Below, one piece after another: positions 5,722 to 42,335 of a stretch of 44,902 nucleotides of DNA (positions are counted from its first letter, which is position 1; each line of letters begins with the position of its first letter). A program made the position numbers and the translations under genes. The stretch comes from an uncultured Clostridia bacterium (lineage in GTDB: Bacteria > Bacillota > Clostridia > TANB77 > CAG-508), in assembly GCA_947624655.1 (NCBI GenBank), contig CANQLH010000016.1:1-44902 (forward strand), given 5' to 3'. Under the pieces are notes generated by a model, which saw only the letters and a program-made list of their open reading frames with translations, was not told the origin of the DNA and ran no database searches.

Positions 5722-6005
5722 TTATATTGACTCCCAAGTTAGTTCTTCACCACTACCGCCAATATCTTCATATTCAGTACCATTCCAGCATTTTATTTGG
5801 TTATCTACTACATATAAGGTGTTTTCTTGCCCCTCTTGAGGAAGTTCTTCCTTAGTTGTAAAAACAATTCCAACTTGAGGGACAGGGATAGTCAGAGTGT
5901 TTCCATCCGCTAAATGAAATTCTAAGTCGCTGCCTTTTGAAGTAACGCTCTAAACACCTGTCGTGACGCTACTTACTAATTTCTTAGCTAGTATGTATGC
6001 AACTG
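5722..6005 (-). CDS. hypothetical protein (94 codons) containing one in-frame TAG
   Basis: Reverse-strand RBS aggaggcgataaggcATG. The frame is open through a TAG ('TTGV(TAG)SVTSKG') and ends at TAA 5722-5724. Not in the ORF track because of the TAG. Confidence 0.45.
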
Positions 6006-6029
6006 TTCCGGTCATGCCTTATCGCCTCC

Positions 6030-6215
6030 TCAACCTAATTTTTTCCACTCCCTATTAGTATTTAACATATAGACAGAGGAATCTTCTATGACAATACAGA
6101 TTGAGCCAGGAGCCGCTGTTGTAGGTAGTGTATCCACATCAGCTACGGTATCAGCTACGTACTCAGTTACATAAGCATAGGTCTTATCTTGTTGTTTGGT
6201 AATAGAAATCGCCAT
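6030..6215 (-). CDS. hypothetical protein (61 aa)
   Basis: Minus-strand ORF with RBS aaggaggag 8 nt upstream of ATG. Collinear with the 5722-6005 gene. Confidence 0.5.
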   Translation of the reverse strand: MAISITKQQDKTYAYVTEYVADTVADVDTLPTTAAPGSICIVIEDSSVYMLNTNREWKKLG

Positions 6216-6327
6216 ATAAAATCTCCTCCTTTAATATCTATTCCCTATTGATTATAAAATTCCATTCAAGTCTCTTAATTACATCAGTCCAAGAATATGA
6301 GAAACTTTTGATAATATATCTTTTATA

Positions 6328-6349
6328 TGTTATAATATATTTATAAAGA
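6328..6349 (+). promoter_or_regulatory. Extended -10 promoter (tgtTATAATatatttataaag), copy 2
   Basis: TGnTATAAT at 6328-6336 plus the conserved leader; a second ataatatat element lies at 6311-6319. Divergent region between minus genes and the radical-SAM operon. Confidence 0.6.
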
Positions 6350-6369
6350 TAAGAAAGGAAGTTGTAAAG

Positions 6370-7269
6370 ATGAAAATTCAATCACTCTCCATAGAAGTTC
6401 CTAATAAGATTTGCATGAATCATTGCAAGTTTTGTGTTTCTCGTATGCGTAGTGATAAATATGAGGATAAAGTAACAAGTCTCGTATTGCATAATACCGA
6501 TAGAATGATTGATTTTGACGATTACTTTAATCGTTTGAGCTTTGCCAGAGATAATGGCTGTAATACCGTTATGTTGACTGGCCAGAGCGAGCCTCAGCAG
6601 AATTTGTGTTTCCTTCGTTGGTTCGGAACGGTTAATAAACAGTTATCTAAACCTTTTTATTGCATTGAAATGCAAACAACAGGACGGTTACTCACACCTG
6701 AAACTCTGCAAATTATGCGTGAAAAAGTGGGTATCACCACTATTTCTTTAAGCATTAGCTCGCTTGATGATAGAGCCAATGCAGAAATTTGCGGCATGGG
6801 CGAAGGAATTGTTCATCTTGAGACTTTAATGCACAATATTAAGTCCTTTGATTTTAACCTGCGGCTGTCGCTCAATTTGACGAGCCGTATGGAACAAGAT
6901 TTTGCGGAGCATGGCGGTATCGCTCAGACAGTCGATTACCTTCACGGTCTTGGAGCTGACCAAATAACTTTTAGAGTTCTTTATATGTCTGATAATGATA
7001 CTCCGCAGGACCGTTGGATTGAAGAAAATGAAACAAGTGCTGATTTTCAGTATGAGCTTAATAATGAAATTAAAGAGAACGGTAAACCCCTGGGCAGACT
7101 GAGCTATGGCGCAATTAAGTATTCCTACCATGGAGTGTGCATTGTCATTGATGATGACTGTATGGCTCAGCATAAGGAAGATGATACCGAGAACTATAAA
7201 TATCTTATCCTCCGCAAGAATTGCAAACTGTATTCTCACTGGGAAGACCCTGCTAGCTTGATATTCTAA
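6370..7269 (+). CDS. Radical SAM enzyme (CxxxCxxC cluster near N-terminus); subfamily undetermined
   Basis: 'CMNHCKFC' (C-x3-C-x2-C) at residues 16-23. 'VMLTGQSEPQ' resembles the GGEP motif of radical-SAM activating/QueE-type enzymes. Confidence 0.65.
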   Translation: MKIQSLSIEVPNKICMNHCKFCVSRMRSDKYEDKVTSLVLHNTDRMIDFDDYFNRLSFARDNGCNTVMLTGQSEPQQNLCFLRWFGTVNKQLSKPFYCIEMQTTGRLLTPETLQIMREKVGITTISLSISSLDDRANAEICGMGEGIVHLETLMHNIKSFDFNLRLSLNLTSRMEQDFAEHGGIAQTVDYLHGLGADQITFRVLYMSDNDTPQDRWIEENETSADFQYELNNEIKENGKPLGRLSYGAIKYSYHGVCIVIDDDCMAQHKEDDTENYKYLILRKNCKLYSHWEDPASLIF

Positions 7270-7284
7270 GAAAGGAGAATTATT

Positions 7285-7473
7285 ATGTATCCTTATCTCG
7301 GCATTGGAACTATCGTTAAAAATCATGTGGGTGAGGTTGGCCGCATAATCGGCTATGATGACGAGAATAAAATCGTCACCATTCAGTATAGAGACAAGGG
7401 AGTAACAAGTGTAAGGCGAGTTTCAGAAATCGCACAAGATATCAAAGCAGTTTCTTATAAGGAGGTTAAATAA
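7285..7473 (+). CDS. hypothetical small protein (62 aa)
   Basis: ORF with RBS aaggagaa; no motif. Confidence 0.45.
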   Translation: MYPYLGIGTIVKNHVGEVGRIIGYDDENKIVTIQYRDKGVTSVRRVSEIAQDIKAVSYKEVK

Positions 7474-39488: not shown

Positions 39489-39564
39489 TAGCTGGCCGGA
39501 GCGATGATGGGCGTCACACCGAGACCAAAAGGCGATTAACTAATTTTAGGAGCAAAAGTAAGAA

Positions 39565-40731
39565 ATGGAACTTAATCGTAAACAAGAGGAAGGATTACGT
39601 ATCGCGGTAGAGCGATATAAACTTGGAGAACCTTATACTGTGATAGCTGGCTACGCAGGAACAGGTAAATCAACGCTTATTCAATTCATTGTATCTGCGC
39701 TTAACCTTGACCCAGATAGAGTTGCATATATCGCATATACTGGCAAGGCTGCACAGGTACTTAGAAATAAGGGCTGTCCTAATGCGATGACAGCCCACAG
39801 ATTACTATATAAATCTATTCAAAAGAATGATGGCACATTCATTCATATTCCATTATCAGTAGGCGCATTAAGTGGATATGATATGATAGTAGTAGATGAA
39901 ATTTCAATGCTTCCAAAACCCATGTGGGATTTGCTGTTAGAGCATCATATTTATACTTTAGCCTGCGGCGACCCCGGTCAGTTGCCGCCAATAGGCGAGA
40001 GTACAGACGTCTTAAATAGTCCGCATATATTCCTCGACGAGATTATGCGTCAGGCGGAAGATAGCGAGATTATACGCCTCTCCGCAGACATCCGCGCGGG
40101 CAAGAAACTTTATCCCTATCGTGGAGAGTCTATTAATATCGTATCTGCTGAAGATTTCTCAGAGGGTATGCTATCATGGGCAGACCAGGTCATATGTGGC
40201 AAAAACGCTACTCGTTTTTATCTTAACGACTATATTAGAACAATGACATGGGGAGAGGCTTGTATCAATGGGCCTATTGTTGGTGACAAGATTATATGCC
40301 TCAAGAATAATTGGAACAAAATTACTCAAGCTGGTGACGCTTTAGTAAATGGTACAATAGGAACGCTAACAAGTCTTGATACTCTACCGAACTAGTTCCT
40401 CGGCACCCGCGCAATTATTTCATTTGCACCTGAAGGATATGATGACCATGATTTAATTGATACTGAGTTCCACAATCTCTTGATAGATTGGAAGCTCATC
40501 ACCACACATGAACCTACATTAAATAAGACAAACTTTATGACCTTTCCTAAGTTTTTACGCCCTGAACAATTTGATTATGGGTATTGTATAACTTGTCATA
40601 AATCCCAAGGCAGTGAATATGAGAAGGTTCTTGTTATTGAGGAAATATTGAAATCTACAGAACACGCAAGATGGCTTTACACAGCTGTTACGAGAGCGTC
40701 TGATAAATTAACTTTAGTATTAAAGGATTGA
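39565..40731 (+). CDS. SF1 helicase of the RecD/Dda family with one in-frame TAG (40393-40395)
   Basis: 'YAGTGKSTLI' Walker A. 'IVVDEISMLPK' motif II. 'LACGDPGQLPPIG' motif III. C-terminal 'CITCHKSQGSEYEKVLVIEE...TAVTRASDKLTLV' motifs V/VI. Track ORFs 39565-40395 and 40480-40731 are in the same frame. Confidence 0.75.
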
Positions 40732-40739
40732 TAATATTT

Positions 40740-40973
40740 ATGATAAAGGTAATTAAAGACAAAAGACCTAGATTTAATGTAGTATGTCCTTCTTGCACTT
40801 CAGAATTAGAATATATGAATGAAGATATATAGGTGAAAAAAACTGGACAATCCAGACAACGTTATTCTATTAAATTTTGTGGGGATATTTTTGAGTAGCA
40901 AGTAATTAAATACATAATTTGTCCAGTATGCGGAGAAATAATAATAGTAGATAAGAAGTGGTTATTAGATTAA
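40740..40973 (+). CDS. small zinc-ribbon protein with two in-frame TAGs
   Basis: 'VVCPSCTSE' ... 'ICPVCGE' CxxC pairs. Single frame from ATG 40740 to TAA 40971-40973 through two TAGs. Confidence 0.4.
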
Positions 40974-40985
40974 AGGAGGATTCTT

Positions 40986-41627
40986 ATGGGACAATATAAT
41001 TCAAAAGGATTATACGCTGGTTATAAAAAGAACAATAAAGAGCGAGAAGCGCTTGATTATTATGCAACACCTCCCAAAGAGGTATTAAATATTCTTGAAA
41101 CGATAGCTCCAGACTTCACGGATAAAACTATACTAGAGCCATGTGTTGGTGGCGGTCATATGCTTGATGGTATCAAGCAATATCTAGAGTTAAATCATCA
41201 AACACCTAGTTAGATTTATATTTCCGATGTAAGAAATCGAGCTAATTGGCCAGAGAATGAGTATTCAGCATTTAATGAAGCAGGAGATTTCTTAAAAGAC
41301 GATTATCCCTTTTCAGAAGCCGATTATGTAATTATGAATCCGCCTTTTGCTACGATTGAGCCATTTACTATTAGAGCTCTTGACATCGCAAAAGAAAAAT
41401 TAATTATGTTTGGTAGATTGCAATTTTTAGAAGGACAAAGTAGATATGAAAAGATATTTAAGGACAATCCACCTAATGATATTTATGTCTATGTGGATAG
41501 GGTCCAATGCGGTAAGAATGGAGTGTTTGTTAGTGGCAGTTCAGTGCAAGCATATGCGTGGTATGTATGGGATCGAACTGGAAACAATCAAGAATACTGC
41601 AAATTACATTGGATTAAGAGGAAATGA
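40986..41627 (+). CDS. DNA methyltransferase (amino-MTase with NPPF motif IV; N6-adenine or N4-cytosine) with one in-frame TAG (41214-41216)
   Basis: 'YYATPPKEV', 'EPCVGGGHMLDGI' (AdoMet motif I-like), 'DYVIMNPPFATIE' (motif IV (D/N)PP(F/Y)). Track ORFs 40986-41213 and 41334-41627 are in the same frame. Confidence 0.65.
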
Positions 41628-41630
41628 GAT

Positions 41631-42335
41631 ATGGTCTATTTAGGTAGTAAAACTAAATATGCTAAATATATAGTTCCACTTTTACAGTAGGTCATTGATA
41701 ACAATAATATTACAACCTTTATAGATGGCTGCTGCGGAGGTTGTAATATTATTGACAAGATAAAATGTGAAAATCGTATTGCCATAGATAAAAATGCTTC
41801 ATTAATAGATTTATATAATCATGCTGTTACGCATGGTACAGAGGATTTTCCAGCTTTTATTACGAAAGAAGATTGGGATTATCGTAAAGAGCATCAAGAC
41901 GAAGAACCACTATATTTAACAGCACTAGCTTCAATATTTTGTAGCTATTCTGCTAGAGGATTTAGAGGAGGATATGCTTGTAATGGTTCTCGTAATTTCT
42001 ATCAAGAACGATTAAATAATTTCAACAAGCAACTACCAAATTTACAAGATATTAAATTTATATGTGCTGACATTAATGATTTAGAAGTCGAAGGCGCCGT
42101 TATCTATATCGACCCACCATATAAGGGCACAAAGACCTATGATGTAAAAGATTTTAACTATGAAACTTTTTGGAATACCGTGCGAAGATTAAGTCAAAAT
42201 AATTTAGTATTTGTATCTGAACAACAAGCCCCAGAAGACTTCTTACCAATTTGGTCATTACCAGTCAAACGTAATTGCTTTGGCACTGGTCGAACCGAAG
42301 CAATAGAGAATCTATTTGTTTATAAGTTTATTTAA
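41631..42335 (+). CDS. Dam-like N6-adenine DNA methyltransferase (DPPY motif) with one in-frame TAG (41688-41690)
   Basis: 'VYLGSKTKYAKYIVPLLQ(TAG)VID...' Dam-family N-terminus. 'FIDGCCGGCNI' AdoMet loop. 'AVIYIDPPYKGT' motif IV. Single frame to TAA 42333-42335. Confidence 0.65.

What the first reader, a model, noticed from the sequence alone, without database searches (positions are those of the whole stretch)
5722..42335. Genome-wide reassignment of TAG to a sense codon (Gln), unevenly distributed among genes
At least 17 genes have single continuous frames that pass through TAG but contain no TAA or TGA. These are PhoH (1), endolysin (2), a small gene at 28211 (2), the winged-helix gene (1), the GIY-YIG protein (13), ThyX (1), the 33077 gene (2), DnaB (1), DnaG (1), RecJ (4), the intron endonuclease (2), Dda (1), a zinc-ribbon gene (2), two methyltransferases (1 each), the minus-strand gene at 5722 (1) and the 14647 phosphoesterase (1). 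No gene in the window terminates on TAG; all stops are TAA or TGA. The identity is fixed by conserved motifs: DnaB H4 'SQLNR' reads T-(TAG)-LNG, and coiled-coil positions read NK(TAG)LE. Both indicate glutamine, as in genetic code 15. The MVP, NAD, topoisomerase II, DNA ligase and DnaE genes avoid TAG, so TAG use may track expression class or recent acquisition. No suppressor tRNA is visible in this window.
Basis: seen in the sequence. Interest (0 to 1): 0.75.

Follow-up and report, generated by a model that had tools for sequence, protein, structure and literature searches.

The report
Phage reads TAG as glutamine
This 45-kb piece of an uncultured SPbeta-like gut phage reads the stop codon TAG as glutamine in about 20 lysis, replication and homing-endonuclease genes but keeps it out of its probable early genes, which is a well-described phage habit (genetic code 15) and not a new kind of biology.

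Summary
With TAG read as sense, 51 ORFs tile 94% of the window. They hold 41 in-frame TAGs in 21 ORFs, and all 50 stops are TAA or TGA. Pfam domains run straight across the TAGs. Opposite the window's TAGs, relatives carry Gln at 43 of 84 aligned positions. Gln beats the next-best amino acid by 86 log-likelihood units, and the DnaB TAG sits on the Q of the SQLxR motif. The use is mosaic: no TAG among 213 Gln-type codons in the first 18.7 kb, against 40 TAG beside 274 CAA/CAG after it. Relatives show the same boundary at PhoH and the lysis genes. This matches published code-15 phages (crAss-like, Lak, phAss-1, the 'gemstone' clades), so it is a new member of a known kind. No tRNA lies in the window. 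In 22 of 46 related loci a tRNA(CUA) lies near the gene that the window's left edge cuts. The phosphoesterase TAG at 14680 heads a 7-nt frame-breaking insert. That insert is conserved in eight phage sequences, which suggests a UAG-triggered ribosomal hop or +1 frameshift.

The parts
108..18718 (+). TAG-free block of 21 plus-strand genes. It holds a DUF7788/vWA-like C-terminus, an MVP-like protein, phosphoesterases, a radical SAM protein, an RNA ligase, NAD salvage genes (isochorismatase/PncA-like, PRPP-transferase-like, NAMPT, NadE), an AAA_33 kinase and two Band_7/flotillin proteins. It is the probable early, standard-code-compatible module.
   Evidence: 0 TAG among 213 CAA/CAG codons in 5632 codons. 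GC is 41.9% against 36.6% downstream, and CAG is preferred over CAA.
5722..6015 (-). Only minus-strand ORF (97 aa), with one in-frame TAG at 5950-5952.
   Evidence: There is no PHROG hit and no homologue in the fetched loci, so the gene is plausible but unverified.
14647..15214 (+). Metallophosphoesterase gene broken by a 7-nt insert, TAGGCAT, at 14680-14686. The insert lies between the CAT codon of the SDxH motif and the TTT AAT CAC GAT codons of FNHD. This is a candidate UAG-triggered hop or +1 frameshift, not Gln read-through.
   Evidence: The joined protein matches phrog_547 phosphoesterase over residues 1-181. Eight distinct phage sequences carry a 7-nt TAG-led insert at the same site.
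18705..19982 (+). PIN-PhoH gene with a TAG at 19602.
   Evidence: The PhoH domain spans the TAG. The site is Gln in 11 and TAG in 2 of the 14 non-redundant relatives.
20033..21397 (+). Endolysin (Phage_lysozyme2 + CHAP + SLH) with TAGs at 20342 and 20816.
   Evidence: Domains span both TAGs. The aligned codon is CAA in 3 of 3 and 1 of 1 relatives.
21397..21696 (+). Holin-like small membrane protein with TAGs at 21589, 21628, 21655 and 21682.
   Evidence: Residue 65 is Gln in 7 and TAG in 1 of the 10 non-redundant relatives.
22084..22626 (+). RNase H with a TAG at 22612, four codons before the TAA stop.
   Evidence: Whether this TAG is read through or acts as a stop cannot be told from homologues.
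22626..28138 (+). TAG-free topoisomerase II subunits (22626-24524 and 24541-26919) and ATP-dependent DNA ligase (27020-28138).
   Evidence: Together with YorF, YorG and DnaE they have 0 TAG among 103 Gln-type codons, against 40 TAG beside 171 CAA/CAG in the rest of the block (p=3.7e-8).
28211..28689 (+). Two small genes, 28211-28417 (2 TAG) and the winged-helix-like 28423-28689 (1 TAG at 28561).
28735..29673 (+). Protein with a TM segment, a coiled coil and a GIY-YIG endonuclease domain. It has 12 TAGs, all within residues 35-183.
   Evidence: GIY-YIG Pfam and PHROG homing-endonuclease hits cover residues 199-312. The first 190 residues hold 12 TAG, 10 CAA and 1 CAG.
29974..30600 (+). ThyX with a TAG at 30037.
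   Evidence: The Thy1 domain is found. The start follows the public gene call.
31034..32974 (+). TAG-free YorF-like (31034-31981) and YorG/Sak4-like AAA_24 (31997-32974) genes.
33077..33598 (+). YorH-like gene with TAGs at 33206 and 33593. The second is the penultimate codon.
33588..35129 (+). DnaB-type helicase with a TAG at 34773.
   Evidence: The TAG aligns with the Q of SQLSR/SQLNR in three solved DnaB structures. It aligns with Gln in 5 of 5 relatives.
35325..36419 (+). YorJ-like primase with a TAG at 36108.
   Evidence: phrog_47 DNA primase. The aligned residues in relatives are Q, Q, K, I and D.
36683..37311 (+). RecJ (YorK-like) exon 1 with TAGs at 36758, 36764, 36893 and 37244.
   Evidence: The DHH domain spans two of the TAGs. 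Sites 71 and 188 are mostly Gln in relatives, and TAG in L012 at sites 26 and 71.
37312..38374 (+). Intron-like insert in RecJ. It carries a GIY-YIG/HTH_7 homing endonuclease ORF (37483-38211) with TAGs at 37849 and 38014.
   Evidence: Relatives L005 and L014 have an uninterrupted RecJ. Joining 37311 to 38375 restores LGLVGDMMD. There is no Rfam group I hit.
38375..39488 (+). RecJ exon 2 with a TAG at 38568.
   Evidence: The site is Gln in 4 of 6 relatives.
39565..40731 (+). Dda/RecD-like helicase with a TAG at 40393.
   Evidence: Pfam AAA_30, UvrD_C_2 and related hits. The site is variable in relatives (L, P, I).
40728..42335 (+). Zinc-ribbon gene (TAGs at 40830 and 40896) and two DNA methyltransferases (TAGs at 41211 and 41688).
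42417..44900 (+). DnaE (YorL-like), first 828 codons, free of TAG. The gene stops at codon 831 just past the window and is followed by a TAG-containing GIY-YIG ORF.
   Evidence: The relative L012 has TAG at codon 833 where the window has CAG.

Best explanation
The window is part of an uncultured phage whose closest long related contigs are about 130-160 kb. Its replication module has the gene order of Bacillus phage SPbeta.

In this phage UAG is decoded as glutamine in a subset of genes, which is genetic code 15. The decoder is most likely a phage-encoded amber-suppressor tRNA(CUA) lying just outside the window's left edge. TAA and TGA remain the only terminators.

TAG is excluded from a block of probable early genes (counter-defence, metabolic and RNA-repair genes) and from several large replication enzymes. 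It is allowed in the PhoH and lysis genes, in homing endonucleases and in some replication genes.

The likely consequence is that the host's standard machinery can translate the TAG-free genes at once. TAG-containing genes give full-length protein only after the suppressor tRNA has accumulated, so the codon acts as a translational timer.

What is shown here: TAG is a sense codon, it stands for Gln, its distribution is mosaic, and that mosaic is conserved in relatives. What is inferred: the tRNA of this particular phage, and the timing role.
For: - **ORF structure and coding density:**
- **Domain continuity:** Pfam domains (PhoH, Phage_lysozyme2, CHAP, DnaB_C, DHH, Thy1) run through the TAGs.
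- **DnaB motif:** the DnaB TAG aligns with the Q of SQLxR in PDB DnaB structures.
- **Codon-level comparison with relatives:** Gln stands at 43 of 84 residues opposite the window's TAGs. Log-likelihood is -168 for Q against -254 for K. Relatives' own TAGs most often face window CAA.
- **Shared TAG sites:** the PhoH site, RecJ residues 26 and 71, and holin residue 65 carry TAG in relatives too.
- **Independent assemblies:** ENA contigs from other samples are 99.9-100% identical to the window across the block boundary. The collection's gene calls already read through TAG.
- **Mosaic statistics:**. Relatives put their TAGs in PhoH, endolysin and holin and almost none upstream.
- **Suppressor tRNA in relatives:** tRNA(CUA) is present in 22 of 46 related loci within 10 kb of the DUF7788/vWA gene that the window's first 524 bases end. 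One of these is L077, which is the same contig as the TAG-using relative L017.
- **Literature:** Borges et al. (10.1101/2021.08.26.457843), Babkin et al. (PMC10607447) and Peters et al. (PMC9523058) describe the same pattern and model.
Against: - No suppressor tRNA, release factor or aminoacyl-tRNA synthetase is in the window.
- The tRNA of this very phage could not be reached.
- Some TAG-using relatives show no tRNA(CUA) in the stretch held (L075, L076).
- The isotype of the relatives' tRNA(CUA) could not be assigned from sequence.
- Replication genes here carry more TAGs than in most published recoded phages.
- Gene timing is inferred only from gene function.
- TAG-free genes also differ in GC and codon usage, so a separate origin could contribute to the pattern.
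- Three TAGs close to 3' ends (22612, 33593, 21682) could act as stops.
Confidence: 0.88

Rival explanations
1. The uneven distribution reflects origin and not timing. On this view the TAG-free genes (the first 18.7 kb, topoisomerase II, ligase, DnaE) were acquired recently from standard-code donors and have not yet picked up TAGs.
For: Block A has higher GC (41.9% against 36.6%) and prefers CAG, GAG and AAG, unlike block B. Gene content of block A varies among relatives; for example, the NAD genes are absent in L017 and L018.
Against: The same boundary, with TAGs starting at PhoH, is seen in relatives with only 45-65% protein identity, so it is old and maintained. The core replication enzymes topoisomerase II and DnaE are syntenic and conserved yet free of TAG. 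CAG-rich genes are one C-to-T step from TAG, so zero TAG among 213 Gln-type codons implies selection against TAG.
Confidence: 0.2
2. TAG encodes an amino acid other than Gln. Candidates are pyrrolysine, Lys, Glu, or Ser/Leu delivered by a long-arm suppressor tRNA.
For: ARAGORN labels CUA tRNAs 'Pyl'. Some relatives carry 91-95-nt tRNA(CUA) with a long variable arm. K and E are the next most common residues opposite TAG.
Against: Gln stands at 51% of aligned positions, against 39% conservation for the window's own CAA/CAG codons. Q beats K by 86 log-likelihood units. Invariant-Gln sites (DnaB SQLxR, PhoH) carry TAG. No pyl genes are in the window.
Confidence: 0.04
3. The TAG-interrupted frames are pseudogenes of a decaying prophage, or artefacts of assembly or chimerism.
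For: None beyond the presence of stop codons under the standard code.
Against: Only TAG interrupts the frames, never TAA or TGA. Genes stay full length and conserved. Independent assemblies agree. Relatives share TAG positions. Synteny across the block boundary is conserved.
Confidence: 0.01
4. There is no dedicated suppressor tRNA. UAG is read by host near-cognate tRNA-Gln after the phage weakens RF1.
For: No tRNA is in the window. Some published TAG-recoded phages lack a detectable suppressor tRNA (PMC10607447).
Against: Twelve TAGs in one ORF would need near-complete read-through. Relatives do encode tRNA(CUA) in a position syntenic with the window's left flank.
Confidence: 0.07

Closest known systems
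[quoted passage not shown] Ivanova et al., Science 2014, is cited from my own knowledge and was not read here.
   Same: - In-frame TAG stands for Gln.
- Only part of the genes are recoded (26-71% in those clades).
- Lysis genes and intron homing endonucleases are preferentially recoded.
- Replication genes are variably recoded.
- Early genes are compatible with the standard code.
- TAG is not used as a stop, and GC content is low.
   Different: - The lineage is different: an SPbeta-like replication module and an SLH-bearing endolysin that suggests a Firmicutes host.
- Structural genes and the suppressor tRNA lie outside the window.
- Membership in any named 'gemstone' clade was not tested.
phAss-1 / proposed Phassvirus (OQ749652; NCBI 'Caudoviricetes code 15 clade'; Babkin et al., PMC10607447)
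   Same: - A gut phage of about 136 kb with TAG in 41 ORFs.
- Several DNA-processing enzymes carry TAG.
- It has tRNA-Sup(CTA) genes and no dedicated synthetase.
- Its RecJ homologue matches the window's.
   Different: RecJ identity is only about 40%. There is no nucleotide similarity, and gene order differs.
Bacillus phage SPbeta (SPBc2, NC_001884) and other Spbetavirus members
   Same: The gene order yorF-yorG-yorH-yorI(DnaB)-yorJ(primase)-yorK(RecJ)-yorL(DnaE) is the same, and replication and nucleotide-metabolism genes are interrupted by introns.
   Different: SPbeta uses the standard code, with 0 in-frame TAG in 1905 aligned residues. Protein identity is 38-44%.
Translational bypassing: T4 gene 60 and the short bypass at a rare UUA codon in Streptomyces phage phiHau3 terminase (PMC10732093). 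This comparison is for the phosphoesterase insert only.
   Same: - A coding gap lies between matched take-off and landing codons (CAU to CAU/CAC).
- A stop or 'hungry' codon lies immediately 3' of the take-off codon.
- ORFs on both sides are conserved.
- A possible 5' hairpin is present.
   Different: - The gap is only 7 nt.
- It lies 11 codons from the start.
- The protein family is different.
- There is no experimental evidence.
- A +1 frameshift cannot be excluded.

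Membership tests
Genetic code 15 (TAG to Gln) recoded bacteriophage | In-frame TAG inside conserved protein-coding genes, with homology continuing across the TAG | tested here: met
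   Pfam domains span the TAGs in PhoH, endolysin, DnaB, RecJ and ThyX. There are 41 TAGs in 21 ORFs.
Genetic code 15 (TAG to Gln) recoded bacteriophage | TAG positions correspond to glutamine in homologues | tested here: met
   43 of 84 aligned residues are Gln. Log-likelihood is -168 for Q against -254 for K. The DnaB TAG aligns with the Q of SQLxR.
Genetic code 15 (TAG to Gln) recoded bacteriophage | TAG is not used as a terminator; TAA and TGA are | tested here: met
   36 TAA and 14 TGA stops, 0 TAG, among 50 complete ORFs. Three TAGs within 1-5 codons of a stop remain ambiguous.
Genetic code 15 (TAG to Gln) recoded bacteriophage | Phage-encoded suppressor tRNA with a CUA anticodon | tested here: inconclusive
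   None is in the window or in the contigs of this phage that could be reached. It is present in 22 of 46 related loci next to the gene cut by the window's left end. ARAGORN detects the known phAss-1 suppressors, which serves as a positive control.
Genetic code 15 (TAG to Gln) recoded bacteriophage | Mosaic use: early genes free of TAG, lysis and late genes recoded | tested here: met
   0 TAG among 213 Gln-type codons against 40 TAG beside 274 CAA/CAG (p=5.5e-10). The endolysin and the holin-like gene are recoded. The pattern is the same in relatives. Gene timing itself was not measured.
Genetic code 15 (TAG to Gln) recoded bacteriophage | Gln shown at TAG positions at the protein level | not testable with these tools
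   This needs metaproteomics of the source samples.
Pyrrolysine decoding of UAG | pylT/pylS/pylBCD genes present, and UAG at positions that are not conserved Gln | tested here: not met
   No such Pfam families are in the window. TAG sites align with Gln.
Programmed translational bypassing (T4 gene 60 / phiHau3 type), for the phosphoesterase 14647-15214 | Matched take-off and landing codons flank a non-coding gap, with a stop or hungry codon 3' of the take-off codon | tested here: met
   The sequence is CAT|TAG-N|CAT, CAC or TAT in eight distinct sequences. The gap is always 7 nt and always starts with TAG.
Programmed translational bypassing (T4 gene 60 / phiHau3 type), for the phosphoesterase 14647-15214 | Both flanking coding parts are under purifying selection | tested here: met
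   The N-terminal peptide M..IW[LIV][TS]SD[FW]H is conserved, with synonymous changes and a ribosome-binding site. The downstream ORF of 174-185 aa is intact in all carriers. The joined protein matches phrog_547 from residue 1.
Programmed translational bypassing (T4 gene 60 / phiHau3 type), for the phosphoesterase 14647-15214 | Stimulatory mRNA structure and a junction peptide | tested here: inconclusive
   A hairpin of the form ATCTGG-N6-TCAGAT lies 5' of the site and shows one compensatory change, but it also encodes conserved residues. The junction peptide needs mass spectrometry.
prfB-type +1 programmed frameshift, for the phosphoesterase 14647-15214 | The P-site codon can re-pair in the +1 frame, and a Shine-Dalgarno-like stimulator lies just upstream | tested here: not met
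   A CAU-to-AUU shift gives no re-pairing with tRNA-His, and no SD-like run lies upstream of CAT. The stop codon in the A site is present. A +1 shift without re-pairing is not excluded.

The most novel reading that the evidence does not exclude
UAG has two opposite programmed uses in this phage clade. In middle and late genes it is a Gln codon that delays expression until the suppressor tRNA appears. In the early RNA-repair phosphoesterase, a conserved 7-nt UAG-led coding gap (CAU UAG N CAY) makes full-length enzyme depend on a ribosomal hop, or a +1 shift, that happens only while UAG in the A site stays undecoded. Once tRNA(CUA) accumulates, UAG is read as Gln in the zero frame and translation ends 2-5 codons later. 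The gap would then work as an inverse switch that turns an early gene off when the code changes.
Probability: 0.2. Interest if true: 0.75.

Novelty: new member of a known kind. Interest (0 to 1): 0.35.

Why it matters
For the finding as given, the value is mostly practical.
- A large uncultured clade of SPbeta-like gut phages must be annotated with table 15. DnaE homologues number in the thousands in public metagenomes. Under the standard code, PhoH, the lysis genes and the replication genes of these phages fragment.
- The clade adds another independent lineage to the evidence that partial TAG recoding with TAG-free early genes recurs as a phage strategy.
- The window carries more TAGs in replication genes than its relatives do (L005 has none, L012 a few). 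These genomes could therefore help trace how recoding spreads through a genome.

The conserved UAG-led 7-nt gap in the phosphoesterase would matter more if it proves real. Natural translational bypassing is known from very few systems. A recoding signal built on the very codon the phage reassigns would link frameshifting or bypassing to the code switch.

Tried and rejected
- **Nucleotide search:** megablast of 23 kb against GenBank phages gave no match. The closest cultured phages reach only 38-44% protein identity.
- **Exact 41-mer from the window's end:** no match in IMG/VR or JGI metagenome contigs.
- **Walking out of the window to find the tRNA:**
  - Downstream, the DnaE look-up gave a contig that ends 600 nt past the window.
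  - Upstream, a homology search with the truncated DUF7788 protein found nothing closer than 61% identity, so no contig of this phage could be reached.
- **Host search:** the genome-contig scan with DnaE gave only a 36% hit in an Erysipelotrichaceae MAG, which says nothing useful about the host.
- **Rfam:** no tRNA, group I intron or ribozyme was found, either at gathering scores or at E<=1. The RecJ insert is called an intron on the exon-junction argument alone.
- **Isotype of relatives' tRNA(CUA):** nearest-neighbour similarity to other phage tRNAs was inconclusive. Only U1 and G73 hint at Gln.
- **First phosphoesterase tree:** it picked up wrong paralogues and was redone.
- **Small genes and methyltransferases:** homologues of the minus-strand ORF, the small genes and the methyltransferases were sought in the fetched loci and none was found. 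Their TAG sites therefore have no comparative support.
- **Ideas considered and dropped:** quadruplet (UAGN) decoding for the phosphoesterase, because the fourth base varies between G and C; an assembly chimera at the 18.7-kb boundary, because independent contigs and relatives span it.

Full report
**What the window is.** The 44,902-bp window has 38.8% GC, and almost all of its genes are on the plus strand. Its right half holds a replication module in the gene order of Bacillus phage SPbeta: YorF, YorG/Sak4, YorH, DnaB, primase, RecJ and DnaE (Pfam names; SPbeta annotation). The closest cultured phages are SPbeta-like Bacillus phages, at only 42-44% protein identity for RecJ and 38% for DnaE. 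There is no nucleotide match to GenBank phages. In metagenomes the lineage is common. 7,783 DnaE homologues score E<=1e-30, and the listed ones include several on contigs of 130-170 kb. ENA contigs from several samples are 99.9-100% identical to parts of the window.

**Checking the observation.** I allowed only TAA and TGA as stops. Under that rule 51 ORFs tile 94.3% of the window. If the same genes are cut at their first TAG, coverage falls to 76.8%. There are 41 in-frame TAGs in 21 ORFs, and the stops are 36 TAA and 14 TGA, with none TAG.

The differences are small. The GIY-YIG ORF has 12 TAGs, not 13. The phosphoesterase item is wrong and is treated below.

Pfam domains run straight across the TAGs in PhoH, both endolysin domains, DnaB_C, the DHH domain of RecJ and ThyX. 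The gene calls stored with the public contigs already read through TAG; they list, for example, a 454-aa endolysin and a 312-aa GIY-YIG protein.

**Which amino acid.** The DnaB TAG aligns with the Q of the SQLSR/SQLNR motif in three solved DnaB structures. I then fetched related loci:
- from IMG/VR (L005-L007 and L015-L043);
- from ENA and Logan (L012-L014);
- from GenBank (SPbeta L008 and phAss-1 L009).

I compared them with the window codon by codon. Opposite the window's TAGs there are 84 aligned residues plus 6 TAGs. Of the 84, 43 are Gln, 11 Lys and 7 Glu. I scored this against substitution profiles taken from the same alignments. The log-likelihood is -168 for Gln and -254 for Lys, the next best.

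Single sites are telling:
- The PhoH TAG faces Gln in 11 relatives and TAG in 2 of the 14 non-redundant loci.
- Both endolysin TAGs face CAA only.
- Holin residue 65 faces Gln in 7 of 10.
- RecJ residues 71 and 188 and RecJ exon 2 residue 62 face mostly Gln.

The reverse comparison agrees. The relatives' own in-frame TAGs most often face window CAA (18 CAA and 1 CAG of 69). L012's DnaE has TAG at codon 833, where the window has CAG. Pseudogenes, assembly error and pyrrolysine are therefore not tenable.

**The uneven distribution.** The 21 plus-strand genes between 108 and 18718 contain no TAG among 213 Gln-type codons. The genes from 18705 onward contain 40 TAG beside 274 CAA/CAG (Fisher p=5.5e-10). 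Within the second block, six large genes have 0 TAG among 103 Gln-type codons: the two topoisomerase II subunits, the ligase, YorF, YorG and DnaE. The rest of the block has 40 TAG beside 171 CAA/CAG (p=3.7e-8).

The ORFs richest in TAG are these:
- the GIY-YIG protein (12 TAGs, all in its coiled-coil half);
- the holin-like protein (4 of 7 Gln-type codons);
- RecJ exon 1 (4 of 9);
- the intron homing endonuclease (2 of 5).

The TAG-free first block encodes an MVP-like protein, NAD salvage enzymes, an RNA ligase, a kinase, phosphoesterases and flotillins. Its GC is higher (41.9% against 36.6%), and it prefers CAG, GAG and AAG.

The boundary is conserved. Relatives with 45-65% protein identity put their TAGs in PhoH, the endolysin and the holin-like gene, and almost none upstream. 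The window has more TAGs in replication genes than its relatives do; L005 has none in 3,045 aligned residues and L012 has six.

This is the pattern published for recoded gut phages. They show partial recoding, enrichment in lysis genes and in an intron endonuclease, variable recoding of replication genes, and early genes in the standard code (10.1101/2021.08.26.457843). A separate origin for the TAG-free block could add to the pattern. It does not explain a boundary this old, nor TAG-free core enzymes.

**The decoder.** No tRNA is in the window (ARAGORN; Rfam at E<=1). No release factor or synthetase domain is there either. ARAGORN does find the annotated tRNA-Sup(CTA) genes of phAss-1, so the negative result is meaningful.

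I could not reach more of this phage's genome. The window's first 524 bases are the end of a DUF7788/vWA-like gene. I used the full-length homologue from relative L018 as an anchor in IMG/VR. Of the 46 loci returned, 22 carry a tRNA(CUA) within 10 kb, usually 2-8 kb upstream inside a tRNA array.

One of them, L077, is the same contig as L017. L017 is a TAG-using relative with the same vWA-then-MVP gene order. Its tRNA(CUA) has U1 and G73, as tRNA-Gln does, but I could not assign the isotype from sequence. The suppressor tRNA of this phage therefore most likely lies just beyond the left edge. That step is inferred.

**The phosphoesterase exception.** The gene starts at ATG 14647, behind a good ribosome-binding site, and encodes MNRIWVSSDFH, which contains the first metal-binding motif. 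Then comes TAG GCA TTT TAA. The rest of the enzyme (FNHDREF..., GD, GNHD) is in the +1 frame. Removing the 7 nt TAGGCAT (14680-14686) restores a protein that matches phrog_547 from residue 1. Most relatives have exactly that uninterrupted sequence.

The insert is not a private mutation. Pattern scans of IMG/VR and of metagenome contigs found the same architecture in seven other distinct sequences:
- TAGGCAT in L055;
- TAGGCAC in L056 (identical to L063), L059, L067 and L074;
- TAGCCAC in L121;
- TAGCTAT in L031.

The insert is always 7 nt, always sits directly after the CAT of SDxH, and always begins with TAG. A scan that also allowed TAA, TGA and TGG found no true homologue with those triplets.

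In every carrier the N-terminal 10-12 codons stay conserved with synonymous changes, and the downstream ORF of 174-185 aa is intact. Carriers are scattered in the protein tree. The window's enzyme is 64% identical to non-carriers and 44-46% identical to the L055 group.

The last three bases of the insert are CAT, CAC or TAT. All three can pair with the GUG anticodon of tRNA-His through G:C or G:U pairs. The same peptidyl-tRNA that sits on the take-off CAT could therefore land there. That fits a 7-nt hop giving the canonical protein. A +1 shift at CAU-UAG would add Arg-His, Ser-His or Ser-Tyr, and I cannot exclude it. A hairpin just 5' of the site shows one compensatory change, but it overlaps conserved codons.

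The nearest published analogues are T4 gene 60 and the short bypass at a rare UUA codon in phage phiHau3 terminase (PMC10732093). I found no report of this site in the papers held.

If UAG is read as Gln here, the zero frame ends 2-5 codons later. A plain code-15 reading is therefore non-productive for this gene. That raises the untested idea that the site senses how UAG is being decoded.

**Other features.** RecJ is interrupted at 37312-38374 by an insert that carries the GIY-YIG endonuclease. Joining 37311 to 38375 recreates LGLVGDMMD, as in the uninterrupted relatives. The boundaries (exon ending in U, insert ending in G) suit a group I intron, although Rfam finds none. DnaE stops at codon 831 just past the window and is followed by another TAG-containing GIY-YIG ORF.

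**Verdict.** TAG-to-Gln recoding with mosaic use is established for gut phages, including one of about 136 kb with a related RecJ (phAss-1, PMC10607447). It has been confirmed by proteomics in crAss-like phages (PMC9523058). This is a new member of a known kind, in a lineage with no close relative among GenBank phage records. The most novel item is the conserved UAG-led 7-nt gap in the phosphoesterase, which deserves an experiment.

Noticed in passing
window 14647-15214 (insert 14680-14686); also L031:9994, L055:4095, L056 (minus strand) 6469, L059:6158, L063:6981, L067:8627, L074:331, L121 (minus strand) near 3900: A conserved 7-nt insert that begins with TAG breaks the frame of a metallophosphoesterase directly after the His codon of its SDxH motif. 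It is found in eight distinct phage sequences. It ends in CAT, CAC or TAT, so tRNA-His could re-pair there. This is a candidate programmed hop or +1 frameshift.
   Followed up: yes
window 37312-38374: RecJ is split by a 1,063-nt insert that encodes a GIY-YIG/HTH_7 homing endonuclease. Joining 37311 to 38375 restores the sequence of uninterrupted relatives. The boundaries fit a group I intron, but Rfam does not detect one.
   Followed up: partly
L010:12494-13112 (just past the window's right end); L005:2131-3158 and 11823-13136: DnaE of this phage ends at codon 831 and is followed by a GIY-YIG ORF that contains TAGs. Relative L005 instead has inserts of 1.0-1.3 kb in DnaB and at another DnaE site. 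Mobile inserts therefore occupy different positions in the same replication genes across the clade.
   Followed up: partly
window 582-17788: This is a block of likely counter-defence or auxiliary genes. It holds an MVP-like protein, NAD salvage genes (isochorismatase-like, PRPP-transferase-like, NAMPT, NadE), an RNA-repair set (RNA ligase, AAA_33 kinase, phosphoesterase) and two SPFH/flotillin proteins. GC is higher than in the rest of the window, and CAG is preferred over CAA.
   Followed up: no
window 28735-29673: A GIY-YIG endonuclease domain is fused to an N-terminal transmembrane segment and a long coiled coil. That is an unusual architecture for a homing endonuclease. Half of the Gln-type codons in the coiled coil are TAG.
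   Followed up: no
L082:6908-6998, L091:2832-2926, L118:6612-6705, L009:15117-15207: Some related phages carry a second kind of tRNA(CUA), 91-95 nt long. The extra length may be a long variable arm or an insert. In L009 (phAss-1) it sits next to a 75-nt tRNA(CUA). Which amino acid it carries is unknown.
   Followed up: no
L037:3708-3779, L086:1109-1181: Two more distant phage contigs (394 kb and 190 kb) carry tRNAs with a UUA anticodon, which would read the TAA stop codon.
   Followed up: no
alignment A1, columns 26-45 (window about 14656-14675): The hairpin ATCTGG-N6-TCAGAT lies just 5' of the phosphoesterase take-off codon. In three carriers it changes to GTCTGG-N6-TCAGAC, a compensatory pair. 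Because it overlaps conserved codons, its significance is unclear.
   Followed up: partly
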